From positions 1 through 14,032 of the forward strand of contig JAKQHK010000067.1 in assembly GCA_029573015.1 (NCBI GenBank): DNA of 14,032 nucleotides, given 5' to 3'. How positions within the stretch are numbered: position 1 is the first letter of the stretch; the number at the start of each line of letters is the position of its first letter. Shown here piece by piece: positions 1 to 13,903 of the stretch. The notes under the pieces are model-generated. The model saw only the letters and a program-made list of their open reading frames with translations, did no database searches and had not been told where the DNA came from. Source of the DNA: a bacterium (GTDB lineage Bacteria > Patescibacteriota > CG2-30-54-11). A program made the translations under genes and the position numbers.

Positions 1-20
1 TTTAGAACACTACCGTAATC

Positions 21-41
21 CCGGGGGCGTAAGCCCCACGG
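21..41. repeat. IS left-end subterminal hairpin (GTAA tetraloop)
   Basis: CCG GGGGC GTAA GCCCC a CGG. The stem is 5+3 bp and lies upstream of tnpA. Confidence 0.55.
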
Positions 42-76
42 ATGAAGTTGATTCCAGAATCGTGTAATATGAGTTC

Positions 77-508
77 ATGAAATACAACAGACAAAGTAAC
101 GCGATATATAAGTGTGAGTACCATTTGGTGATGACGAGTAAGTATCGTCGGAAGATATTTAATGATGGGGTTATGGAGTATCTGCGGGTAAAGATGTTAG
201 AGATACGGAAGCGTTACGCGGCAGTAGAGGTACTAACAGCAAATCACGACAGGGATCATGTACATATAATGATAAGCATACCACCGAAGATGAGTGTAGG
301 GAGCGTGGTGAGGATAATCAAGAGCAATACAGCGAGGGAGTTAAAGGAGAAGTTTGAACATATACGAAAAGCCTATTGGGGTACAGAGAGTGTATGGTCG
401 GGAGGATATTTTGTCAGCACGGTGGGGATGAACGAGGAAGTGATACGAAAGTACGTTGAGCTGCAAGGGCAAGAAGATTCTGGACAAGCGAAGCTTGACC
501 TAGGCTAA
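77..508 (+). CDS. tnpA: IS200/IS605-family transposase TnpA (Y1 HUH single-strand transposase)
   Basis: The size (143 aa) is typical. It has the N-terminal 'YHLVMTSKYRRKIF' block, the HUH motif in 'DRDHVHIMISIPPK', and a C-terminal Tyr-containing helix 'EEVIRKYVELQ', which I take as the plausible catalytic Tyr. Confidence 0.9.
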   Translation: MKYNRQSNAIYKCEYHLVMTSKYRRKIFNDGVMEYLRVKMLEIRKRYAAVEVLTANHDRDHVHIMISIPPKMSVGSVVRIIKSNTARELKEKFEHIRKAYWGTESVWSGGYFVSTVGMNEEVIRKYVELQGQEDSGQAKLDLG

Positions 509-510
509 TG

Positions 511-530
511 CCGGCAGCGTAAGCTGCCGG
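511..530. repeat. IS right-end subterminal hairpin (GTAA tetraloop)
   Basis: CCGGCAGC GTAA GCTGCCGG has a perfect 8-bp stem and starts 3 nt after the tnpA stop (TAA at 506-508). It has the same loop as the left-end hairpin. Confidence 0.6.
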
Positions 531-564
531 AAGTTTACCTTTATTAATTATCGATTTGATCACG

Positions 565-1314
565 ATGACATGGAATCAATGGCGTGATTTTGTAAACAGC
601 AAATTATACGATGTCGCGTTTGTCATTTTTATTATAATCTTTTTTTCCAGCTCAACTTTTCAGGATATGCTTCCTAGAGAGCGGCATAGCATGGAGGGGT
701 TAGTCTTTACCTTCGGTTTCGTTGCATTGTATTATGCTCCCAAGTTGGTTTTGCGGAGGCTTATTCGTGAACAGCAGCGAGAAGAAGATCGGCTGGTAAA
801 TCTAGAAATGGATGCCTCAGGCGAAAAAAGGTTTACACGAGCATTAACCGATGCCGAGAAAAATCATATATATAAAGCTATGCAGCGTATTTGGGTACGC
901 GTCGCTCTGGCATTGGCAGTTGGACTGTATATCGGTTTATATGTTTTTACCAAGAGCAAAGCGAATCTTGATCCAATCCTTGCGGCATTCCTCGGAATTG
1001 TATTGGCAGGCATTGGAGTAGCGCGAGAGCTGGATAAAAATCGAAAACTCTATTTGGATTTGCGTACTGATGCAGTAATGCAGGTTGAGGGAGAATTAGT
1101 TCGGGAGATTGATTATGGTAAATATAACAAAAAATTCATTAAGTTTATTGTGCGAGGACAGGTTTTCGAAGACACGGTTACTCCTGGATTGAAGCAGGTA
1201 TATGATCAATTCGAAGAGGACGAGGCAGTCAGGATATTATTTTCTCCATATACGAAATTAGTTTACACCATCGAAAGTACCAAGAGACCTGGGATAAAAT
1301 TTGAAATGGTATAG
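565..1314 (+). CDS. Membrane protein, paralog A of a tandem pair. It has 4 predicted TM helices, a charged loop 'LIREQQREEDR' and a roughly 95-aa C-terminal soluble domain. The family is not recognised.
   Basis: This is a long ORF (the ORF track starts at TTG 556; the first ATG is at 565). Two hydrophobic pairs of helices are separated by a charged loop. Large conserved blocks are shared with the next ORF: LIRxQQRxEDR, RTDAVMQVEGELxREI, xVRGxxF and FxEDExVRI. The DNA is visibly AT-rich compared with its neighbours. Confidence 0.6.
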   Translation: MTWNQWRDFVNSKLYDVAFVIFIIIFFSSSTFQDMLPRERHSMEGLVFTFGFVALYYAPKLVLRRLIREQQREEDRLVNLEMDASGEKRFTRALTDAEKNHIYKAMQRIWVRVALALAVGLYIGLYVFTKSKANLDPILAAFLGIVLAGIGVARELDKNRKLYLDLRTDAVMQVEGELVREIDYGKYNKKFIKFIVRGQVFEDTVTPGLKQVYDQFEEDEAVRILFSPYTKLVYTIESTKRPGIKFEMV

Positions 1315-1320
1315 AATACC

Positions 1321-2091
1321 GTGTCTAATCGAAGTAATGAGCATAAACCGAATCGATTGCGCAATTTTATTAATAGCGGCTCATATGAGTTAATAGCTGC
1401 TATTATTATTTTTATAGTGGTTATCATTTTGCCACTGAGTGATTTTGGTCCTAAAATACAACGAAATCAGACAAGCCTATTATTTTTTTTCATTTTTTTA
1501 ATCGTTATTTTTATACCAAAGAATTATGTTCAATCTTTAATTCGCAAGCAGCAGCGGGCAGAAGACAGGCAGACGAATGTGAAGATTGATGCTGCGGGAG
1601 AGCCGAGATTGATCCGTGATTTGCGTGAATCTGAAAAACGATTACTTATGAAAACAAAACAGCAATTTATGCTTCAAATGGTATTATTCATGGTTGCTGC
1701 TCTGTTCTTTATTTTCTTTTTGTATCTTGAAAGTTTTAGGTTGCCTTTTTTGTTGTTATTTGTAGCATATCTTGGCATTTTTACTTTTCGAGGTATATTA
1801 AGTTATGTCGATGGATTCCGGTTGATATATTATGATCAGAGAACTGATGCGGTCATGCAAGTCGAGGGAGAATTAATTCGAGAAATCCTGAAAACCCGTC
1901 GTGGGTTAGATGTAACCTATATCGTACGGGGTGTTGCATTTACCAATTCTGTTTCCAAAAGGCTTGAAAAAATAGCCTATCGGTTTATGGAGGATGAACC
2001 CGTACGTATAGAATATGGTCCTCATTCCAAAATAATTTTTCGCATAACCAGCCTGGTTCGTTCAGGCATCAGTGAAGATTTTACGAGCTAG
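1321..2091 (+). CDS. Membrane protein, paralog B of the tandem pair. It has the same architecture as 565-1314 and probably a GTG start.
   Basis: The ORF begins with GTG at 1321, 6 nt after the stop of paralog A, and has no in-frame ATG until far downstream. It shares the motifs 'LIRKQQRAEDR', 'DQRTDAVMQVEGELIREI', 'YIVRGVAF' and 'FMEDEPVRIEYGP' with paralog A. The sequence is AT-rich. Confidence 0.6.
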   Translation: MSNRSNEHKPNRLRNFINSGSYELIAAIIIFIVVIILPLSDFGPKIQRNQTSLLFFFIFLIVIFIPKNYVQSLIRKQQRAEDRQTNVKIDAAGEPRLIRDLRESEKRLLMKTKQQFMLQMVLFMVAALFFIFFLYLESFRLPFLLLFVAYLGIFTFRGILSYVDGFRLIYYDQRTDAVMQVEGELIREILKTRRGLDVTYIVRGVAFTNSVSKRLEKIAYRFMEDEPVRIEYGPHSKIIFRITSLVRSGISEDFTS

Positions 2092-3341
2092 ACAGACAGG
2101 GATGCATGCTCGCCTGCTACCCAGCCAGTAGAAAAGGCTGCCTGCAGATTGTAGCCGCCCGTAGGGGCATCGAGGTCTAGTACTTCGCCGGCAAAATAGA
2201 GTCCTTTGACCAGGCGTGATTCCATGGTCTTGGGATTGATTTCTTGCAGACTGACACCCCCGCTGGTGATGATCGCATCTTTGAATCCGATCAGCCCGGT
2301 GATCGTACAGGGCAGCTTCCGCAGGAGCTCAAACAGTCTTTGTCGTTCCTGCCGATTAATCTGATTGCCAAGCTTGTCACGCGGTATGCCTGTCAGTTCG
2401 ACGAAGACAGGTATCAGGCTGGCTGGCAGGAGATTTTTTAGTATGCTCACAAAATACTTTTTGCCCTCCTGGTCGAAGTCGCGTTGCAGGCGGGCTTGCA
2501 GCTGGGTGTCGCTCAGCGCCGGCTTGAGATCAATATTTGCCTGCAGTGGTTCGGGCCAGTTATCCGGCGCACTGCCGTGAGACCGGAGATAGGTGGTTAT
2601 GTCCCTGCTGGCATCGAGGACAATTGGCCCGCTGATGCCGAAATGCGTGAAAAGCATCTCGCCGAATTTTGTACTGATCACCTGATTGGCAGCGCGGATG
2701 GTGAGCGCGACATTCTTGAGACCCAAGCCCTGGACATTTTTGATCCATTTCTCTGAGCAGGTCAGTGGGGTAAGAGCTGGGTAAAGATCCAGGACTCTAT
2801 GCCCGCTCTGTTCAGCAAAGGCATAACCGTCTCCGGTTGAGCCGGTGCCGGGATAACTTTTTCCACCGGTTGTTATGATGACACGGTCGGCAGATAGTTC
2901 CTTGCTGTTAATCTGGATACCGGTTACTTGTCCGTTATTATGCAGGATGTTTTCTACCCGCTGTCCATAGCGCATTTTTGCCTGGCTGGCATAGCTTGTC
3001 AGAGCATCGCGGACATCCGTGCTTTTCTGGGATACGGGAAATATGCGGCCGCCGCGTTCTGTGACCGTCTCCACGCCATGTCTTTTCAGCAGCTCAAGCA
3101 GCTCAGGCCGGAAGAACTGATGAAAAGCTCCATAGAGGAATTCGCCATGCGGCGAGTAAGCTGTGATGAATTCAGGCAAGTCGGCAGCGTTTGTGAGATT
3201 GCAGCGGCCTTTGCCGCTGATAAGTAGCTTGTAGCCGGCAATATCGTTGCGCTCATAGACGGTAACCTGAGCGCCATGTTCCAGAGCCCGTCCGGCAGCC
3301 ATAAGGCCGGCTGGACCGGCACCGATAATGCATATTTTCAT
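2088..3341 (-). CDS. HI0933/BaiN-like NAD(P)/FAD-dependent oxidoreductase (aminoacetone-oxidase-family flavoprotein)
   Basis: The N-terminal Rossmann dinucleotide motif 'MKICIIGAGPAGLMAAG...VTVYER' is present, followed by 'LISGKGRCNLTN' and C-terminal 'GLYFAGEVLDLDAPTGGYNLQAAFSTGWVAG', which are typical of the HI0933-like family. I place the start at the ATG encoding MKICIIG (3341) rather than the upstream in-frame ATG at 3389, because the GxGxxG normally sits within about 10 residues of the N-terminus. Confidence 0.85.
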   Translation of the reverse strand: MKICIIGAGPAGLMAAGRALEHGAQVTVYERNDIAGYKLLISGKGRCNLTNAADLPEFITAYSPHGEFLYGAFHQFFRPELLELLKRHGVETVTERGGRIFPVSQKSTDVRDALTSYASQAKMRYGQRVENILHNNGQVTGIQINSKELSADRVIITTGGKSYPGTGSTGDGYAFAEQSGHRVLDLYPALTPLTCSEKWIKNVQGLGLKNVALTIRAANQVISTKFGEMLFTHFGISGPIVLDASRDITTYLRSHGSAPDNWPEPLQANIDLKPALSDTQLQARLQRDFDQEGKKYFVSILKNLLPASLIPVFVELTGIPRDKLGNQINRQERQRLFELLRKLPCTITGLIGFKDAIITSGGVSLQEINPKTMESRLVKGLYFAGEVLDLDAPTGGYNLQAAFSTGWVAGEHASLSV

Positions 3342-3375
3342 AGATATACTTTCTGCGAGTACTGTTGGGAGTGCA

Positions 3376-3840
3376 TTACAGGACATCAAAGGTTACATCA
3401 GTCGCGTCAACAGGGAAAACCTGGGATGTTGCTTTCCCGATTCTGAAGAGTTCATGTCCGAGGAAATACAGGACGAATCCCTGTCTGACCTCGCCGGTTG
3501 CGTAACCGTACAAATGATAGGTGTGCATGTCCTGGTCGACTGCATAGTATACACCCGGTTTCGGCTGACTGCCTGCGAGCAGTTCATCATAGTTGTGTAA
3601 TTCCACCAAAAGTTGTTGGTCGGTAACCGCGGTACGCAATGTAGCATAGGAGGGATAGCTGTCAGCATCTTGGTACATTAGCTGCAGCAGGTCGTTGAGC
3701 TCATGCATGTCCGCGCGCACGAGCATGTCCACAGAGCCGCAGGCACAGGGAAAGTGCAGACCGTAGTCAGTACTGTGCACGCGGAGGGTGAAGAGTGCGG
3801 GCAAACAGAGGCAGAGGATAATGATGATTTTTGTTCGCAT
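3376..3840 (-). CDS. Small exported protein of unknown function (signal peptide, probable SPase I site after VHS)
   Basis: The N-terminus 'MRTKIIIILCLCLPALFTLRVHS' is a basic n-region followed by a hydrophobic core. There is no canonical lipobox. The gene sits 22 nt downstream of the radical SAM gene on the same strand. Confidence 0.6.
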   Translation of the reverse strand: MRTKIIIILCLCLPALFTLRVHSTDYGLHFPCACGSVDMLVRADMHELNDLLQLMYQDADSYPSYATLRTAVTDQQLLVELHNYDELLAGSQPKPGVYYAVDQDMHTYHLYGYATGEVRQGFVLYFLGHELFRIGKATSQVFPVDATDVTFDVL

Positions 3841-5775: not shown

Positions 5776-5821
5776 GGGTTTCCTTTCGTGTTACACTGCA
5801 GATGGGGAAACGCATGAGTCC

Positions 5822-5841
5822 GGGAAAAGTAACTTTTTCCC
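5822..5841. promoter_or_regulatory. Palindrome GGGAAAA-gtaact-TTTTCCC in the divergent intergenic region between the VanZ/rSAM operon and the peptidase gene
   Basis: The 7-bp arms were read directly. It is located between the two divergent starts (5775 and about 5895) and is a candidate operator. Confidence 0.3.
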
Positions 5842-5894
5842 CGCAGGCGTGTTATCGATTAACGTGTTCTGTTCATGATATGCAGGAGATGCGA

Positions 5895-7562
5895 ATGATT
5901 GAGGCATCTGGCGCAGAAGAGAGGGACGAAACATCTGTACCCTTTGTCAGGCTACAGGGTCATGGTGTAGCAGCCGACAGGCGGATCCTGCCGCTGTTTC
6001 TGCGCGTGTTGTTGTTTGTGCTGATTTTAACCGGTTCACTCGGCGGGGCGGTTTGGCTAATACGGCATGGTATGCCGGCAGTATATGCCCGTTCTGATCT
6101 CACCTATGTGTATTATGTACCATTGTTTACGTTCTTAATGCCCTATTATGCTTATTTCGGCATCATCCTCGGACTGGTTGTGCTCGGGATAGCAGGTACG
6201 TATATCTGGGAAAGTCCGAGGCAGCGGCTGTTTCCGACCTTGCTCGGCAAGGTTGTCCTGAGCTTCATCAGTTGCCTCCTGCTGTGTGCAGCCGGTATCC
6301 GGTATGCCTGGGACCTGTCGCTTGTCTGGTACAAGCAGGAGGCACAACAGGCTGCCGAGCATATTACTGCCCAGGAAGCAGAGCTGTTTATTACTGATGC
6401 TGCAGCTATTGCTGCGGCGCTATCTGCTTCTGACCATATTCTGATTGCTTCTGGCACGCCCGAGGAATTATCTCGCCAGATCATCAGTAATGAGATTGGG
6501 AAAAACGATGAGCTGGGGACGTATTATACCCAGACATTAAGCAGCCTTGTGAATGAATTCAGTTTTCCGACGCTGTCGATTGCAGAAACAAGCCTGTTTT
6601 ACTATGACAGCGTTTTATATTTCGGCTCAGTCGAGGAAGCAGCCATGGAGCAGATCAGTGAAGAATTAGGAAGGAGGCTCGTTCAGCAATACTTCAGTGA
6701 GCATGTCATTAAGGCTGATCCTGATTTCGATATCATCGCCCAGGATGAGTATGTTGTTAAGCGCCAGCAGCAGATAGCTGAAGATCTAGCGGAGTATGAT
6801 ACCGCCATCGGGGAGGCACGGCAAACCATTATAGAAATTGAAAATGAAATTCCGATTCTGCAGCAAACCATGGGAGAAATACGCCAGGCAATCGCAGAGG
6901 ATGAGCAGTATCTGGCAGAGTACGGGTATGACATGTGGGGACGCTGGCTCGAGGAGGACCGTGCCATGCTTGGCCGCTACGAAAACCTGCTCGCCGAATA
7001 CCAGCAGGGGCTGGCAGACTGGCAACAGTACCTCGCTGACCTTGAGAATAACAGGGAGATTTTAACAGAATCCAGTCAGTGGGTGGACGTTGAATTGGGG
7101 CTGTTTACCCCGGATAACCAAATAGAAATTGTGCTGGATACAGATGATCCTCTCCCGCCTGAAGCATATCTTTCTACGCTGGTCCACGAGTATCTGCACT
7201 TTACCAGCTATGTACCGGAGGAAGATCTGGAGAATTTTTTTGAAGAAGGTCTTACAGAATACTATGCGCGTGAAATTTTGCGGAAGTCCCTGCATACCAC
7301 GGTTGAGCTCGGGTATTCGTCGGCTGTTGATATCATACAGTACATGGAACAGGATATCCCTTTTTCCGAATTTACGGAGATTTATTTTTCCAAAGATGAA
7401 GAACTACTTGCACAAACAGTCGACCAGACATACGGGACAGGATTTTATGCTACTACCCTTCCGGTATTCAAGTTGGTGCTCTACGGTGATGACGAAGCAG
7501 CGGAATCAGCTAAAGATGATCTGATCGCACGCATGGAGGGAGCACGCGAACGAACAGAGTAA
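5895..7562 (+). CDS. Membrane-anchored Peptidase_MA_2-like zinc metallopeptidase fused to a multi-TM N-terminal region and a long coiled-coil domain
   Basis: The HExxH motif is 'HEYLH' at 7185-7199, and 'EEGLTEY' (7242-7262) lies 18 residues downstream. HExxH plus 18 plus EGxxEY is the gluzincin/Peptidase_MA pattern. There are about 3-4 TM helices near the N-terminus and a heptad-rich central region with internal 'LAEY...W' repeats. I prefer the start at ATG 5895, which is preceded by AGGAG (5884-5888); the ORF track extends to 5802. Confidence 0.75.
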   Translation: MIEASGAEERDETSVPFVRLQGHGVAADRRILPLFLRVLLFVLILTGSLGGAVWLIRHGMPAVYARSDLTYVYYVPLFTFLMPYYAYFGIILGLVVLGIAGTYIWESPRQRLFPTLLGKVVLSFISCLLLCAAGIRYAWDLSLVWYKQEAQQAAEHITAQEAELFITDAAAIAAALSASDHILIASGTPEELSRQIISNEIGKNDELGTYYTQTLSSLVNEFSFPTLSIAETSLFYYDSVLYFGSVEEAAMEQISEELGRRLVQQYFSEHVIKADPDFDIIAQDEYVVKRQQQIAEDLAEYDTAIGEARQTIIEIENEIPILQQTMGEIRQAIAEDEQYLAEYGYDMWGRWLEEDRAMLGRYENLLAEYQQGLADWQQYLADLENNREILTESSQWVDVELGLFTPDNQIEIVLDTDDPLPPEAYLSTLVHEYLHFTSYVPEEDLENFFEEGLTEYYAREILRKSLHTTVELGYSSAVDIIQYMEQDIPFSEFTEIYFSKDEELLAQTVDQTYGTGFYATTLPVFKLVLYGDDEAAESAKDDLIARMEGARERTE

Positions 7563-7671
7563 GCATGTCATCCTTCGACCCTCACCAGGGCAGGATCGCT
7601 CAGGATGACTATGCTGGCATACTTTCAGCAATGCTCAGGTTATAACGTATAATGCAGAGTGACTCGGTGGA

Positions 7672-8835
7672 TTAGTTGAACGGCCAGGCGGTGACATCGC
7701 CAGTGGTGATGGGCAGCACCCCGTCCCATTTTTCAATTGCTTTGGCAGCATTTTCCAGGCGTTTGAGCTCGATAGCTTTGTCGCTGATCTGCTGTTCGCT
7801 GACCAGCTTGTTGTACTCCGCTATAGCCTGGGCTTCCAGGATGGTGACCTGCTTGGCGGTTTCCGCTTCAAGTAGTTCGCGGTCTGAGGCGGCTTTGGCC
7901 TGCTCGAGCAGGGCATCCTCCATGTCGCGACTGGAGATGGCTAATTCGGTTTCCGCGATCTGCTGGCGGAAAGCGGGTGAGATAAGAATATTTTCAATAT
8001 CCACGTCATGGACAGTGATGTAGTAGTCCTCAAGCACGTCGGCGATTTCCTTAGCTGCGGCTTTTTTGATCTCCGGCTGCTTGAGCAGGACTTCACCGAT
8101 GGGGTATTTTACAATAATATTCTTGATGACTTCGTTGGTATTCGGATTGATAATGTCCTCGGTCAGTTCGGCGATGCTCCTCACCCCGTATTCACGGTAC
8201 ATGTCATACAGTTTGGCTTCATTGAGCTGGAATTCCACATTCACCCAGAGGGTGACATCCTGGAACTCTTTGGAATCAGCAGTGATGCGTTCGACTTCCG
8301 CGGACTGGCGGGTGACATCCGCCAGGTAGATTTCCTGGGTCAGGGGCAGGTAAAAGTGGGTGCCTTCATCGAGGACTTCTTTGGTCAGGCCGCCGCCAAA
8401 GCGATCGAAGACCACGCCGCGATGGCCGGGAGGAATAGTTACCCAGAGTTTTTCGGTTGACAGATATCTGGCAATACCGCCGATCACCACGAGGATGATC
8501 AGCGTTACGATGATGCGTACTTTGTGCTTCCAGATCGCATGGAGAATCTGGCCGATCTTCTGGAAAAAGGCATTGATAAAAATGCCCAGTGCCTGTCCGA
8601 GTCCGGATACTGCCTGCCCAAGCTTGGCGGTCGAGGTGGCGAGAGTTGTTTTAGTTTCTTTTTTCTGTTCTGGTGCAGGAGCGGGTTGAGAGGGGGGAAG
8701 CGGACTAGCCTGCGGCAGGGTCATGGTTTTTTCCTTCCTGGTTAATGGAGCTAAACGCAGAAATACCTCCCGGATAATGAGTACGAGGAGGGTTATCAGC
8801 AGAATGATATAGAGATATAACAAAATCTTGTCCAT
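7672..8835 (-). CDS. SPFH/band-7 (prohibitin/HflK/HflC-like) membrane protein
   Basis: The protein has a TM helix followed by 'WVTIPPGHRGVVFDRFGGGL...EGTHFYLPLTQEIYLADVT', the typical start of an SPFH domain. It also has a C-terminal coiled coil rich in A/E/K. An alternative start is Met38 (ATG 8724-8722), which is preceded by GGAAGGA-n7 and would give a Pro-rich N-terminal tail plus a single TM, as in HflK. Confidence 0.85.
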   Translation of the reverse strand: MDKILLYLYIILLITLLVLIIREVFLRLAPLTRKEKTMTLPQASPLPPSQPAPAPEQKKETKTTLATSTAKLGQAVSGLGQALGIFINAFFQKIGQILHAIWKHKVRIIVTLIILVVIGGIARYLSTEKLWVTIPPGHRGVVFDRFGGGLTKEVLDEGTHFYLPLTQEIYLADVTRQSAEVERITADSKEFQDVTLWVNVEFQLNEAKLYDMYREYGVRSIAELTEDIINPNTNEVIKNIIVKYPIGEVLLKQPEIKKAAAKEIADVLEDYYITVHDVDIENILISPAFRQQIAETELAISSRDMEDALLEQAKAASDRELLEAETAKQVTILEAQAIAEYNKLVSEQQISDKAIELKRLENAAKAIEKWDGVLPITTGDVTAWPFN

Positions 8836-9106
8836 CCAGCCTGCCGAATGTTAAAGGTATATCAGTATAGCAGGCGATGGTCAGTCAAAACAAGTATCCT
8901 TTGGGATATCTTGCTTTTGGCTGTGGTTGGGATATTTTACCTCATACGATCGGTAACCGGTTTGGCATACTCCTGCGCTAGGGCATGTTTTGGATATGGT
9001 TGGTCTGCTCGCCTCCAGCAGGCGGGCATGCGAAAGGGTGCGGTTTGCCATGCGGTGGTAGACGAGACTGAGGGTGCAGTTGGAGGGGAACATCTTTTTT
9101 TGAGTC

Positions 9107-9134
9107 TAGAATTTAGAATATAGAATTCAGAATG
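9107..9134. repeat. Four tandem heptamers: TAGAATT TAGAATA TAGAATT CAGAATG
   Basis: A direct read of 9107-9134 gives a 7-bp period with a conserved AGAAT core. The repeat sits immediately after a T7 run at 9095-9101. Confidence 0.6.
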
Positions 9135-9176
9135 GTTACGGCGTACATCTAATAAGTAATACGAATGAGAGGTGCG

Positions 9177-9200
9177 TTTGTTACAACGTGTAGTAACAAA
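9177..9200. repeat. Perfect palindrome TTTGTTAC-N8-GTAACAAA
   Basis: The 8-bp arms are 9177-9184 and 9193-9200, with loop 'aacgtgta'. It abuts the terminator hairpin of the TfoX_C gene. Confidence 0.6.
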
Positions 9201-9224
9201 AAAGCAGCGCGAAAGTAACGCTGC
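9194..9224 (-). terminator. Probable Rho-independent terminator for the minus-strand gene 9254-9532
   Basis: The minus strand reads GCAGCG-ttactttcg-CGCTGC (stem 9204-9209 / 9219-9224) followed by TTTTTTGTT. It lies 30 nt downstream of the gene's stop. Confidence 0.5.
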
Positions 9225-9253
9225 AATAAAAGTGTATACGTGCTATTCCTGTT

Positions 9254-9532
9254 TTAGCACTTATTTTTCCAGGTGTGGTCAGGATAGAGTCTGTCGAATT
9301 CCTTGGCTGCCTGGGCGTGAATCGTGTTCCACTTCACGCCATGGTGAGCGCCGACGATGCTCGCTAGGGCGCAGCGGCAGAGGGAGGGATCAACTTTTTC
9401 TGTAAGCTCATGAAAGATTTCGTAGGGGTCGCGCGCCAGAAACTGTTCGCGATCGGTGATACCGATCTTGTTAAGGGTTGCGGCGATTTTCGGACCAATA
9501 TTGGGGAGTGATTCAAGTGATGATTTGGGCAT
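9254..9532 (-). CDS. Stand-alone TfoX/Sxy C-terminal (helix-hairpin-helix) domain protein
   Basis: 'LESLPNIGPKIAATLNKIGITDREQFLARDPYEIF' and 'CALASIVGAHHGVKWNTI' match the TfoX_C signature (LPNIGpks...G, then lyaLeGAl.g..W). The protein is 92 aa. Confidence 0.6.
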   Translation of the reverse strand: MPKSSLESLPNIGPKIAATLNKIGITDREQFLARDPYEIFHELTEKVDPSLCRCALASIVGAHHGVKWNTIHAQAAKEFDRLYPDHTWKNKC

Positions 9533-9586
9533 GATACTTTTTTCCGATAATGATATAGACTGACAGCCTGCGGTTTGTCTGCCCGT

Positions 9587-10126
9587 CTAGCCGATCCAGT
9601 CCGTGCTGACAAGTTTGCCTTGCGGTCCGAAGGTCAGGGTGTGGAGCAGGCCTCCGAGCGTCAGTACAAACTGCTGTCCAAGGGCGGTGATCTGGTAGGA
9701 GCGCGATTTTTGTTCCACCAGCCCTGCATGTTCAAGCTCCCGTAGATGGTAATACAGTGCTCCGCCTTCCATCCCGGTTGCTCCAGCCAGGCTGGTGGCG
9801 GTGGCGGTTCGGGTGTGCATGAGGGCTTTGAGCATTTCCAGCCGCTGGCGGTGGGCGGCTGAGGAGAGGAGTAGTTCCCAGAGGTCGGGATTGATGCCGC
9901 TTACAAAGGTGTCTCCCGGTTTGTCAGCGCGCGATACAAGCAGGGAGGACCAGGCTTGTGGTTCGCTTTCCGTGGTTTGCCGGTAGGCGCCGGCGCTGTA
10001 GACGATGGTATCGCCGGGTTCAGTCAGGGCGCGATTCCACTCCCGAATGAGGGGCGGTGGTTTTTGTTTACCCTTACCGGAGATTTTTTCGGTGAGGGGG
10101 CCGAAAATCGGTTTACTGGCTGACAT
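9587..10126 (-). CDS. Transcriptional regulator with a C-terminal ArsR/SmtB-like winged HTH and an unrecognised N-terminal domain
   Basis: 'LEMLKALMHTRTATATSLAGATGMEGGALYYHLRELEHAGLVE' fits the ArsR-type wHTH. I place the start at ATG 10126-10124 because AGGAGG lies 5 nt upstream; this gives MSASKP... The ORF track's longer start (10141) lacks an SD. Confidence 0.7.
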   Translation of the reverse strand: MSASKPIFGPLTEKISGKGKQKPPPLIREWNRALTEPGDTIVYSAGAYRQTTESEPQAWSSLLVSRADKPGDTFVSGINPDLWELLLSSAAHRQRLEMLKALMHTRTATATSLAGATGMEGGALYYHLRELEHAGLVEQKSRSYQITALGQQFVLTLGGLLHTLTFGPQGKLVSTDWIG

Positions 10127-10160
10127 GGTATCCTCCTGCATTAATTATGCTTACACTACA

Positions 10161-12790: not shown

Positions 12791-13903
12791 TCAGACTGGC
12801 TGATGTGCCGCTTGATATTTGCGGATTATCCAGTACAGGATGAGACCTGCATAACAGCTTGCGCCGATGAGAAGCGGGATGAGCATCCAGGGCTGCGTTG
12901 CTTGTTCTACGCGGTTAAATATCGTGTTGATAATGGTTATCAGATACTCGAGTACTTCTGTGGGAGTGTCAGAAGTCAGTTCCTGTATCAGCGTATCACT
13001 GACAGTGGTATGCAGCCACTGCAGCGCCAGACGCATGCCAAGAAAATTAAGTCCAAGCAGGAATAAACTGGTCCCAATCCAGCGCAGCAGGGAGGGGAGG
13101 GAGTGGAGCGTAATCGCGAGCATGAGAGACAGGAGACCAATTACGATGATCAGCCAGATGCGCTCGCCGACTGAGACGTACCCATAGACTGAACGCACAT
13201 CCTGCAAACCGGTAACCAGTTCCTGATATGCCTTTGTATCAGAAGAGCCTGTTTTCACTTCCGGTATTTTTCCTTCAGGCACATTAAAGTCTTCCATGAT
13301 CGTACCGTCGATAATTTTTTTCAGGCTGATTTTATCAGGTAATACCTGCGTGAAATTATCCAGGAACCCGTATCCCTCCGGACCGAGGAATTGCTCGAGA
13401 CTCATGCCCTCGGGTACGCAGTCAAACGTCACCTTGCCGGTTTCCTGCATGCGGATCAGCTCGCTCATGGTGCAGAACGGCAGCGCTGCCTGTTTGCGTT
13501 CCAGCGTGGATTTCACCAGTTCTGCAAACGTGTCACGCTGTGAGCTGATGTCCACCACGATATCAAATTCCGGTTCATCGCTATCAAGCCAGGATGAAAG
13601 GTCACTGACAGCCCGGTCAATCTGGTCGTAGAACCATGAGGTCGGAAAGGCTTCGTATACAAGTGATTCGATCTCATCGTTCGAGAAGAGCAGAGGAGAA
13701 TCTTCCAGCTTGAATTCTTCCTGTTCCTGCTTCAAAGCGGTGAAGGCTTCCTCGTATCCGAGCTCGATTATGCCTGAGTTTCGGAATTCGTCGGCATAGT
13801 ACTGCAGGTCGAGCAGGGAATTTTTCAGGATAATCAGCACGCCTCCGGCAGTAGTCAGGAGGATGAAGCTGGTCAGCAGGAGGAAGAGGAAGAATTTACG
13901 CAT
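12791..13903 (-). CDS. Membrane protein of unknown function. It has an N-terminal signal anchor, an acidic extracytoplasmic domain of about 230 aa, and 3-4 C-terminal TM helices.
   Basis: The ORF is 370 aa. 'MRKFFLFLLLTSFILLTTAGGVLIIL' is a signal or anchor. The C-terminal third is hydrophobic ('IWLIIVIGLLSLMLAITL', 'LFLLGLNFLGMRLALQWL', 'MLIPLLIGASCYAGLILYWII'). Confidence 0.65.
   Translation of the reverse strand: MRKFFLFLLLTSFILLTTAGGVLIILKNSLLDLQYYADEFRNSGIIELGYEEAFTALKQEQEEFKLEDSPLLFSNDEIESLVYEAFPTSWFYDQIDRAVSDLSSWLDSDEPEFDIVVDISSQRDTFAELVKSTLERKQAALPFCTMSELIRMQETGKVTFDCVPEGMSLEQFLGPEGYGFLDNFTQVLPDKISLKKIIDGTIMEDFNVPEGKIPEVKTGSSDTKAYQELVTGLQDVRSVYGYVSVGERIWLIIVIGLLSLMLAITLHSLPSLLRWIGTSLFLLGLNFLGMRLALQWLHTTVSDTLIQELTSDTPTEVLEYLITIINTIFNRVEQATQPWMLIPLLIGASCYAGLILYWIIRKYQAAHQPV

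What the first reader, a model, noticed from the sequence alone, without database searches (positions are those of the whole stretch)
565..2091. Tandem paralogs with a 4-TM core, a conserved charged loop LIRxQQRxEDR, and a C-terminal beta-rich domain (RTDAVMQVEGELxREI ... VRGxxF ... FxEDExVRI)
Both proteins share the same topology: TM1-TM2, a roughly 45-aa highly charged loop, TM3-TM4, and a roughly 95-aa soluble tail. Their motifs are colinear. The second gene starts with GTG 6 nt after the first gene's stop. I do not recognise the family. The C-terminal domain has the alternating hydrophobic/charged pattern of a small beta-sandwich. It may be a membrane-tethered PH-like domain, as in the Bacillus YdbS/YdbT tandem pair, but that is speculative. 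Tandem membrane paralogs of unknown function next to a mobile element are the kind of locus where small novel systems, such as stress or phage-exclusion modules, turn up.
Basis: partly seen in the sequence, partly recalled or inferred. Interest (0 to 1): 0.55.

Follow-up and report, generated by a model that had tools for sequence, protein, structure and literature searches.

The report
Tandem membrane-anchored OB-fold paralogs, Patescibacteria-type
Two adjacent genes encode old duplicates of a very rare, unnamed family of bacterial membrane proteins that hold a small OB-fold barrel (not a PH domain) on the inner face of the membrane; what they do is still unknown.

Summary
Genes A (565-1314) and B (1321-2091) are true paralogs: 36% identity, E 2e-39, with every quoted motif present. 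Both are intact. Their synonymous sites are saturated, so the duplication is old and neither copy is decaying.

No Pfam, NCBIfam, PADLOC or PHROG model reaches significance. In about 15 billion proteins I found only about 25 relatives. The few that carry a taxon name are Saccharibacteria or "Patescibacteria group".

One relative has three tandem copies, two of them without TM3-TM4. The linker and the OB therefore form one unit on one side of the membrane, probably the cytoplasmic side.

A and B have GC3 of 0.33-0.39, against 0.52-0.67 for the other chromosomal genes, and abut an IS200 copy. This suggests horizontal acquisition.

Function is not established. My best guess is a two-subunit membrane tether for an oligomeric ligand, possibly nucleic acid. 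There is no evidence for phage exclusion.

The parts
565..1314 (+). Gene A, 249 aa: a membrane-anchored OB-fold protein. It is the first of the tandem paralogs.
   Evidence: ORF. Paralogous to B. An identical protein is called in four other assemblies. It matches the family profile at E 2e-54.
613..753 (+). A: TM1 (aa 17-32) and TM2 (aa 45-63), an N-terminal helical hairpin.
   Evidence: Hydropathy scan, plus alignment to the modelled helices of B.
754..858 (+). A: conserved charged linker (aa 64-98), with motifs LIREQQREEDR and GEKRFTRALTDAE.
   Evidence: Family-invariant R, L and E (B numbering R99, L101, E105) and near-invariant E94. The equivalent stretch of B is modelled as a helix plus a short strand.
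889..1023 (+). A: TM3 (aa 109-129) and TM4 (aa 135-153). This second hairpin is dispensable in short-form relatives.
   Evidence: Hydropathy. It is absent from two tandem copies in L007 and from P0042.
1051..1284 (+). A: C-terminal OB-fold barrel (aa 163-240), with motifs YLDLRTDAVMQVEGEL, VRGQVF and FSPYTK.
1312..1323 (+). A/B junction: TAG AAT ACC GTG. A and B are in the same reading frame, and no Shine-Dalgarno-like sequence precedes B.
   Evidence: Sequence and frame check.
1321..2091 (+). Gene B, 256 aa: the second tandem paralog, with a GTG start.
   Evidence: ORF. Full-length AlphaFold2 model at pLDDT 86, pTM 0.78. It matches the family profile at E 3e-55.
1381..1512 (+). B: TM1 (aa 21-42) and TM2 (aa 45-64).
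   Evidence: AlphaFold2 helices and hydropathy.
1519..1635 (+). B: charged linker (aa 67-105), LIRKQQRAEDR ... GEPRLIRDLRESE. It contains strand 96-99.
1666..1809 (+). B: TM3 (aa 116-136) and TM4 (aa 141-163).
   Evidence: Together with the start of the barrel, this region aligns in register to Pfam DUF4131 positions 9-121 at a sub-threshold score.
1828..2058 (+). B: C-terminal OB-fold barrel (aa 170-246).
   Evidence: Strands 178-192, 195-202 and 205-208, helix 213-216, strands 227-232 and 239-244. It is homologous to the modelled domain of A.
16..545 (+). Context: an IS200-type insertion sequence. tnpA runs 77-508, flanked by two similar hairpins at 21-41 and 511-530. A and B lie outside it. 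The outer limits 16 and 545 are approximate.
   Evidence: PF01797 at E 6e-34. Hairpins have z-scores of -2.4 and -3.4. The shared GCGTAAGC loop occurs only at these two sites in the window. Four other assemblies of this locus break inside tnpA.

Best explanation
A and B are two old, intact paralogs of a very rare, unnamed protein family. The only taxon names attached to any relative are Saccharibacteria and "Patescibacteria group".

Each protein is an integral membrane protein. It has an N-terminal helical hairpin (TM1-TM2), a conserved highly charged juxtamembrane helix followed by a short strand (GEPRxxRxL..E), a second hairpin (TM3-TM4), and a C-terminal OB-fold barrel. The anatomy is shown by the models and alignments.

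The next three points are inferred. The linker and the barrel form one composite soluble unit. It sits on the cytoplasmic face, because the N-terminus and the linker carry most of the Lys and Arg. The TM3-TM4 hairpin is an optional insert.

The following steps are also inferred:
- The two genes are translated as a coupled pair: same frame, 6-nt gap, no Shine-Dalgarno sequence before B.
- The proteins work together as a hetero-oligomer.
- The OB units hold an oligomeric ligand at the membrane. The ligand is most plausibly single-stranded nucleic acid, otherwise a peptide tail. This would resemble the 2-TM + OB (DUF4131) module at the N-terminus of the DNA-uptake channel ComEC.
- The pair was probably acquired horizontally, and an IS200 copy now sits beside it.

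My confidence in the anatomy and fold is about 0.85. My confidence in the ligand-tethering or nucleic-acid mechanism is about 0.25.
For: - Paralogy: 36% identity, E 2e-39.
- Old duplication with both copies retained: 35 identical codons among 85 identical residues, against 35.0 expected at saturation. Both copies keep every invariant family residue.
- Family size and taxa: 23 hits at E<=1e-3 in 1.84 billion representatives, two of them spurious repeat proteins, and a few more from profile searches. Named sources are Candidatus Saccharibacteria and Patescibacteria group.
- ComEC-like module: 8 of 21 members hit PF13567 DUF4131, best 27 bits. The register is the same in those inspected: TM3 start aligns to profile position 5-9, and the match extends into the barrel up to profile position 93-121. 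DUF4131 is a pair of TM helices plus an OB fold predicted to bind ssDNA (PMC5031224).
- Composite unit on one side of the membrane: short-form relatives join the linker directly to the OB with no TM3-TM4. Strand 96-99 of B is the only strand outside the C-terminal domain, so it must pair with that domain.
- Orientation: the linker has 11-13 Lys+Arg and the N-terminus 2-4, against 1-2 in each short loop.
- Paralogs working together: tandem arrays recur. There are two copies here and three in L007/L008. In L007/L008 the long copy and the two short copies belong to different old clades: c1+c3 has 97% bootstrap support, all three together 1%.
- Horizontal origin: GC3 is 0.39 (A) and 0.33 (B), against 0.52-0.67 for the other 13 chromosomal genes. 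The IS200 tnpA itself has 0.51. The IS200 is directly upstream.
Against: - No function has been tested for any member.
- The DUF4131 matches are below Pfam's threshold (27 against 31.6 bits). hhalign against the N-terminus of E. coli ComEC/YcaI found nothing, though that was a single sequence and so a weak test.
- The OB of ComEC is described as outside the cell, whereas this one is predicted inside.
- The OB domains are not markedly basic: pI 5.1 for A, 8.2 for B, family median 8.6. That is lukewarm for nucleic-acid binding.
- Neighbouring genes are not conserved among relatives, so context supports no pathway.
- Six of the eight relatives whose flanks could be read are single-copy, so a hetero-oligomer is not obligatory for the family.
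- Heteromer formation and membrane orientation were not computed directly.
Confidence: 0.4

Rival explanations
1. NfeD-like model. The OB barrel is a protein-binding module that docks the tail of another membrane protein, as NfeD/YuaF/YbbJ OB domains do with SPFH (stomatin/flotillin) partners. It would organise or regulate that partner.
For: The overall plan is the same: TM helices followed by a C-terminal OB barrel. The OB domains are near-neutral rather than basic. The window does encode a Band_7/SPFH protein at 7672-8835.
Confidence: 0.12
2. Mobile conflict module. The pair is an accessory membrane system, such as phage or superinfection exclusion, a toxin/immunity-like pair, or a host-interaction factor of an episymbiont. 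It would spread by horizontal transfer.
For: The distribution is patchy and very sparse. The composition is foreign (GC3 0.33-0.39 against 0.52-0.67) and the pair lies beside an IS200 copy. Tandem expansions are lineage-specific. The b1-b2 loop is variable and rich in Lys and Arg.
Against: There is no hit to 5,027 defence models or to PHROGs. There are no relatives in IMG/VR, GenBank phages or PLSDB plasmids. In other genomes the gene has native composition and sits among housekeeping genes such as groES/EL, suf and rRNA methylase. No enzymatic effector domain is present.
Confidence: 0.15
3. Split-gene model. A and B are the two halves of what is, or was, a single two-module gene. The in-frame TAG would be a nonsense mutation or a leaky stop, so the real product is an 8-TM, two-OB protein, or B is no longer made.
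For: A and B are in the same frame, separated only by TAG AAT ACC. B starts with GTG and has no Shine-Dalgarno sequence. In the Saccharibacteria relative, the frame of P0002 stays open to the contig end and carries a YSPFT motif 84 nt upstream of its GTG. In the window, the corresponding motif at the end of A lies 81 nt upstream of B's GTG. The motif's background rate is 3 hits in 218,510 aa.
Against: Sharing a frame has a 1-in-3 chance. The 249-aa product of A ending at this stop is called identically in four other assemblies, and TAG ends other genes in the window, including NadA and HI0933-like. Synonymous saturation shows that B has been maintained for a long time. The upstream stretch in L001/L011 scores only 2-5 bits against the family profile, whereas true tails score 25-43 bits. 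In L007 the tandem copies are in different frames.
Confidence: 0.1
4. The C-terminal domains are membrane-tethered bacterial PH (bPH) domains, and the pair is an analogue of Bacillus YdbS/YdbT.
For: There is a superficial similarity: tandem membrane proteins with TM hairpins and small beta-rich soluble domains.
Confidence: 0.02

Closest known systems
ComEC/Rec2 N-terminal module (Pfam DUF4131, PF13567): two TM helices followed by an OB fold
   Same: A TM hairpin is immediately followed by an OB barrel. There are recurrent, in-register sub-threshold profile matches from TM3 into the barrel. The literature records stand-alone DUF4131 proteins (PMC5031224).
   Different: Scores are below Pfam's threshold: best 27 bits against 31.6. 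There is no Competence or beta-lactamase domain. The protein is small (about 250 aa). It has an extra N-terminal hairpin and a conserved charged linker with no counterpart in DUF4131. The OB is predicted to be cytoplasmic, whereas the ComEC N-loop is reported outside the cell. No competence genes lie nearby.
YhhM/DUF2500 (PDB 3q6c) and PROPEN_03304 (PDB 3rd4): small OB-like barrels of unknown function
   Different: Sequence identity is only 8-15%. There is no profile match. The membrane part differs, and the charged linker and tandem paralogy are absent. Their functions are equally unknown.
SSB/PriB-type single-stranded-DNA-binding OB folds
NfeD family (YuaF, YbbJ; PF01957)
   Same: The architecture is TM helices plus a C-terminal OB barrel.
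   Different: There is no sequence or profile match. No operon partner of SPFH type is conserved. It is not among the top structural hits.
YdbS/YdbT bacterial PH-domain membrane proteins (PF03703)
   Same: They are tandem membrane proteins with small soluble beta-rich domains.
   Different: The fold differs (OB, not PH), and there is no Pfam match.

Membership tests
OB-fold superfamily (fold level) | A five-stranded closed or semi-closed barrel ordered b1-b2-b3-helix-b4-b5 | tested here: met
   Two independent AlphaFold2 models give this order. In A's tail the strands are 17-29, 35-41 and 44-47, the helix is 53-60, and further strands are 66-71 and 78-83. B's tail is equivalent.
OB-fold superfamily (fold level) | The nearest solved structures are OB folds | tested here: met
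DUF4131 / ComEC N-terminal module (PF13567) | Score at or above Pfam's gathering threshold (31.6 bits) | tested here: not met
   The best member, P0022, scores 27.0 bits at E 4.2e-6. A scores 15.0 and B 16.0 bits. Eight of 21 members match at E<0.1.
DUF4131 / ComEC N-terminal module (PF13567) | Two TM helices directly followed by an OB fold | tested here: met
   TM3-TM4 followed by the OB barrel. Matches run in register from profile position 5-9 to position 93-121. The domain definition comes from PMC5031224.
DUF4131 / ComEC N-terminal module (PF13567) | Association with Competence (PF03772) and metallo-beta-lactamase domains, or with competence genes | tested here: not met
   No such domains occur in A, B or any relative. 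No ComEC-type gene appears in any of the fetched neighbourhoods.
DUF4131 / ComEC N-terminal module (PF13567) | Profile-profile homology to ComEC N-termini | tested here: inconclusive
   hhalign of the family alignment against the single E. coli YcaI N-terminus gave nothing. A proper test needs a deep DUF4131 alignment (HHpred), which was not available.
Bacterial PH domain proteins YdbS/YdbT (bPH_2, PF03703) | Match to the Pfam model | tested here: not met
   No hit at E<=1 for A or B.
Bacterial PH domain proteins YdbS/YdbT (bPH_2, PF03703) | PH-like fold: two orthogonal sheets closed by a C-terminal helix | tested here: not met
   The models end in strands. The only helix lies between b3 and b4. 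No PH structure appears among the best matches.
NfeD family (PF01957) | Match to the Pfam model, or to a family member | tested here: not met
   No Pfam hit. hhalign against E. coli YbbJ gives probability 0.15%.
NfeD family (PF01957) | Operon partnership with an SPFH/Band_7 gene | tested here: not met
   The Band_7 gene in the window is 5.6 kb away on the opposite strand. No SPFH gene occurs in the related loci.
Known anti-phage defence systems (PADLOC-DB 2.0) | Match to any defence protein model | tested here: not met
   A has no hit. B has only noise: Cas12 at E 0.0064 over 56 aa, and PycTM at E 0.84.

The most novel reading that the evidence does not exclude
The pair may be the founding example of an undescribed two-subunit membrane system. 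In it, cytoplasm-facing OB barrels, distant offshoots of the ComEC 2-TM + OB module, would capture nucleic acid at the membrane. It would be specific to Patescibacteria, which depend on scavenging from host cells. The system could serve DNA or nucleotide scavenging, or act as a mobile conflict element, and would spread by horizontal transfer.
Probability: 0.12. Interest if true: 0.65.

Novelty: new variant of a known kind. Interest (0 to 1): 0.36.

Why it matters
The family has no name in the curated libraries I searched, although its sequence motifs are strongly conserved and its structure is confidently predicted. Every relative with a taxon label is a Patescibacterium, a group in which a large share of genes has no assigned function.

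This work defines the family: the fold, the domain limits, the invariant residues, the long and short forms, and the tendency to occur in tandem arrays. That gives a concrete target for biochemical tests. If the distant link to the OB module of ComEC holds, the family would be a stand-alone relative of part of the DNA-uptake machinery, in organisms that depend on scavenging from their hosts.

On present evidence this is a well-characterised protein of unknown function, not a demonstrated new system.

Tried and rejected
- Foldseek against AFDB50. The library was not available.
- hhalign against single E. coli sequences for ComEC/YcaI and NfeD/YbbJ. Nothing was found. Single-sequence targets make this a weak test.
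- PDB sequence searches with the family profiles. Nothing was significant. The sub-threshold hits to staphylococcal nuclease and IF-1 fall on their OB parts and I treat them only as an echo.
- P0006 and P0007 from the representative search. These are long internally repetitive proteins whose scores are inflated by repeats, so I discarded them.
- An upstream paralog in the Saccharibacteria contig L001. I first read a frame-2 tail there. I withdrew that reading when L011, which is 9 nt longer, showed a TGA in that frame. I then found a YSPFT motif in frame 1 at the expected distance. Profile scores of all candidate readings are only -1.5 to 5 bits, against 25-43 bits for true tails. Conclusion: undecided, so I do not use it as evidence of tandem conservation.
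- Charge complementarity between tandem OB domains as a sign of a heterodimer. A has pI 5.1 and B 8.2, but the three L007 copies are all basic, so there is no general pattern.
- A and B as cargo of the IS200 element. Rejected: both IS hairpins flank tnpA only, at 21-41 and 511-530.
- Gene conversion between A and B. The 59-nt stretch at 78% identity is explained by the invariant peptide RTDAVMQVEGEL, and synonymous sites are saturated overall.
- Scans for relatives of the A/B subfamily in GTDB genomes, JGI metagenomes and IMG/VR. They yielded only the Saccharibacteria locus and one fragment, and nothing viral.
Full report
**1. What is in the sequence**

The window holds two co-directional ORFs at the stated coordinates. 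A runs 565-1314 (ATG, 249 aa) and B runs 1321-2091 (GTG, 256 aa). A's TAG is followed by AATACC and then B's GTG, so the 6-nt gap is exact.

BLASTP of A against B gives 36% identity over 242 residues with three gaps, E 2e-39.

B has two N-terminal helices (21-42, 45-64), a charged helix (67-89), a short strand (96-99), two long helices (103-136, 141-175), and then a beta-rich tail.

The GTG start of B is the right one. The conserved N-terminal motif (N)xLRNFxN..Y, shared with A and with relatives, lies upstream of the TTG start chosen by another gene caller.

**2. Both copies are maintained**

Among the 85 aligned positions where A and B have the same residue (excluding Met and Trp), 35 use the same codon. 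The number expected if synonymous sites were fully randomised is 35.0. The duplication is therefore old, and there is no recent gene conversion.

The one 59-nt stretch at 78% identity encodes the invariant peptide RTDAVMQVEGEL. Both proteins keep every invariant residue of the wider family. Neither is a decaying copy.

**3. The family**

- No curated model reaches significance: Pfam, NCBIfam, PADLOC and PHROGs all fail.
- A word-indexed search of 5.8 billion clusters found only A itself and one relative.
- An exhaustive HMMER scan of 1.84 billion representatives found 23 hits at E<=1e-3. Two of these are spurious repeat proteins.
- Profile searches added a few more, including short forms.
- The only taxon names attached are "Candidatus Saccharibacteria" and "Patescibacteria group bacterium". 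The window's own MAG is labelled only "bacterium".
- Nothing was found in IMG/VR, GenBank phages or PLSDB plasmids.

The family alignment shows these conserved elements, in B numbering:
- QRxE(D/E) in the charged helix;
- GxxGEPRxxRxLxxxE, with E94, R99, L101 and E105;
- YxDLR(S/T)PV just before the barrel, with Y170 and D172;
- G183 in the first strand;
- VRGxxF, with R203 and F207;
- EYSPxTKxxW, with E231, S233 and P234.

A, B, P0002 (Saccharibacteria), P0004 and P0005 form a subfamily with 97% bootstrap support. Whether A and B are each other's closest relatives is unresolved: 44% support, against 45% for A grouping with P0002+P0004.

**4. The fold of the tail**

The order is: stalk helix, long bent strand, two strands, a helix, two strands, and a short final strand. 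This is the OB order b1-b2-b3-helix-b4-b5.

- then bacterial SSBs, RPA, the anticodon-binding domains of AsnRS, AspRS and LysRS, Stn1/Ten1, and AB5 toxin B subunits.

Foldseek gave the same kinds of structure, with a best E-value of 4.5e-3. No PH-like structure appears in either list, and there is no bPH_2 Pfam match. The domain is an OB fold without a close solved relative.

**5. Link to a known module**

Eight of 21 family members give sub-threshold matches to Pfam DUF4131. The best is 27.0 bits at E 4.2e-6, against a threshold of 31.6.

In the matches I inspected, the register is the same. The match starts at the beginning of TM3 (profile positions 5-9) and runs through TM4 into the first strands of the barrel (profile positions 93-121). 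B aligns at residues 120-233 to profile positions 9-121.

DUF4131 is the N-terminal part of the DNA-uptake channel ComEC. It has been dissected into a pair of TM helices plus an OB fold predicted to bind ssDNA, and stand-alone DUF4131 proteins are on record (PMC5031224).

The shared plan and consistent register make distant homology plausible, but membership is not shown. The score threshold is not met. There are no Competence or beta-lactamase domains. No competence genes lie nearby. hhalign against a single E. coli ComEC N-terminus found nothing.

NfeD proteins (TM helices plus an OB that binds SPFH partners) are an architectural analogue, but they fail every test I could apply. The Band_7 gene of the window is 5.6 kb away on the other strand.

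**6. Long and short forms, and tandem arrays**

A profile search of all fetched loci shows three consecutive family genes in L007/L008, at 7372-7950, 8001-8720 and 8786-9355. The first and third (193 and 190 aa) lack TM3-TM4 altogether. In them the charged linker runs directly into the OB domain. P0042 (158 aa) has the same short form. This has three consequences.

- The linker and the OB must lie on the same side of the membrane and probably form one unit. This fits the model of B, where strand 96-99 is the only strand outside the C-terminal domain and so must pair with it.
- TM3-TM4 is an optional insert.
- The short copies (c1+c3, 97% bootstrap) and the long copy belong to different old clades, because all three together get only 1% support. 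Distinct paralogs are therefore kept side by side, as A and B are here.

Six of the eight relatives whose flanks could be read are single-copy: L006, L009, L013, L014, L015 and L016. The tandem state is therefore recurrent but not universal.

For the Saccharibacteria locus the question is open. Both available contigs end about 100 nt upstream of the gene. A YSPFT motif lies in frame 84 nt before its GTG. In the window, the matching motif at the end of A lies 81 nt before B's GTG. The motif's background rate is 3 hits in 218,510 aa. However, no reading of that stretch scores more than 5 bits against the family profile.

**7. Orientation (inferred)**

Lys+Arg counts are 2-4 in the N-terminal 20 residues and 11-13 in the linker. 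Each of the two short inter-helix loops has 1-2 (the short-loop counts are read from the sequence).

By the positive-inside rule, the N-terminus, the linker and the OB face the cytoplasm. This differs from the reported extracellular position of the ComEC N-loop (as summarised in PMC5031224).

**8. Genomic setting**

An IS200-type element lies directly upstream. Its tnpA runs 77-508 (PF01797, E 6e-34). Two similar hairpins flank it at 21-41 and 511-530, and their GCGTAAGC loops occur nowhere else in the window. A and B lie outside the element.

Four other assemblies of the same locus all break inside tnpA. This fits a multi-copy repeat.

A and B stand out in composition. GC3 is 0.39 for A and 0.33 for B, against 0.52-0.67 for the other 13 chromosomal genes, membrane proteins included. 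tnpA itself is at 0.51. In the low-GC relatives the gene matches its neighbours. The pair was probably acquired from a lower-GC donor.

B's stop overlaps the stop of a convergent HI0933-like flavoprotein gene. No sigma-70-like promoter lies between the IS and A, and there is no intrinsic terminator. B has no Shine-Dalgarno sequence and shares A's frame, so coupled translation is likely.

Neighbours of relatives differ from locus to locus:
- TatD and groES/EL (L006, L015);
- the suf cluster (L007);
- RmuC and a methyltransferase-type DNA-repair gene (L014);
- a DEAD-box helicase (L016).

No conserved partner exists.

**9. How it most likely works**

Shown: two maintained paralogs; the membrane anchor; the conserved charged linker; the OB barrel; the long and short forms; recurrent tandem arrays; foreign composition.

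Inferred: a cytoplasm-facing composite linker+OB unit; coupled expression; hetero-oligomer formation; binding of an oligomeric ligand at the membrane.

I favour nucleic acid as the ligand, for three reasons: the ComEC-module echo, the SSB/PriB structural neighbours, and the Lys/Arg-rich b1-b2 loop together with the conserved SPxTK turn. However, the domains are only mildly basic, and A's is acidic.

I put this mechanism at about 0.25. Protein-tail binding of the NfeD type and a mobile conflict role are the main rivals.

**10. Verdict**

This is a real and well-defined but functionally uncharacterised family. It is best described as a new variant of the membrane-anchored OB-fold theme, possibly a distant stand-alone relative of the ComEC N-terminal module. 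It is not a PH-domain pair, and there is no evidence that it is a defence system. Interest is moderate.

Noticed in passing
window 1-545: An IS200-type element carrying tnpA only (77-508). It is flanked by two similar hairpins (21-41 and 511-530) with identical GCGTAAGC loops. Contigs from four other assemblies of this locus all end inside tnpA, at window positions of about 398-484. The element is therefore probably multi-copy in this genome.
   Followed up: partly
window 565-2091: A compositional island. GC3 is 0.39 (A) and 0.33 (B), against 0.52-0.67 for the other 13 chromosomal genes. The boundary on the right coincides with the end of B.
   Followed up: partly
window 1312-1323: A and B are in the same reading frame, separated only by TAG AAT ACC, and B has no Shine-Dalgarno sequence. 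Read-through of the TAG would give a protein of about 508 aa with 8 TM helices and two OB domains. TAG is otherwise an ordinary stop in this window (NadA, HI0933-like, HTH gene).
   Followed up: partly
window 2088-2091: The stop codons of B (+ strand) and of the convergent HI0933-like flavoprotein gene (2088-3389, - strand) overlap. There is no intergenic space and no terminator.
   Followed up: no
L007 7372-9355 (same in L008): Three tandem family genes. The first and third are short forms (193 and 190 aa) that lack the TM3-TM4 hairpin. They sit inside a suf/iron-sulfur cluster neighbourhood.
   Followed up: yes
L001 1-90 and L011 1-100: Two independent assemblies of the Saccharibacteria relative end within 9 nt of each other, about 100 nt upstream of the family gene. 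The frame of that gene stays open to the contig end and holds a YSPFT motif. A canonical AGGAG lies 5 nt before the GTG. An upstream paralog is possible but unproven.
   Followed up: partly
L001 920-1050: Downstream of the family gene there is a GC-rich hairpin (acacccgctcagactgagcgggtgt), followed by a short tandem repeat of TACTTCTTACTTCC-like units.
   Followed up: no
L009 1114-2034: The single-copy subfamily member here is 306 aa. It carries about 50 extra residues ending in a further hydrophobic helix after the OB domain, so its barrel would be flanked by membrane segments on both sides.
   Followed up: no
window 7672-8835 and 9254-10141: A Band_7/SPFH protein with a long Pro/Thr-rich N-terminal region. 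Separately, there is a small TfoX_C/Cdd1 (helix-hairpin-helix) protein next to an HTH_20 regulator. Neither is linked to A or B in other genomes.
   Followed up: partly
window 3376-3840, 5802-7562, 12791-13903: Three sizeable ORFs (154, 586 and 370 aa) have no Pfam match. The 586-aa protein has a long Glu/Gln-rich region that looks helical, and the 370-aa protein appears to be a membrane protein.
   Followed up: no
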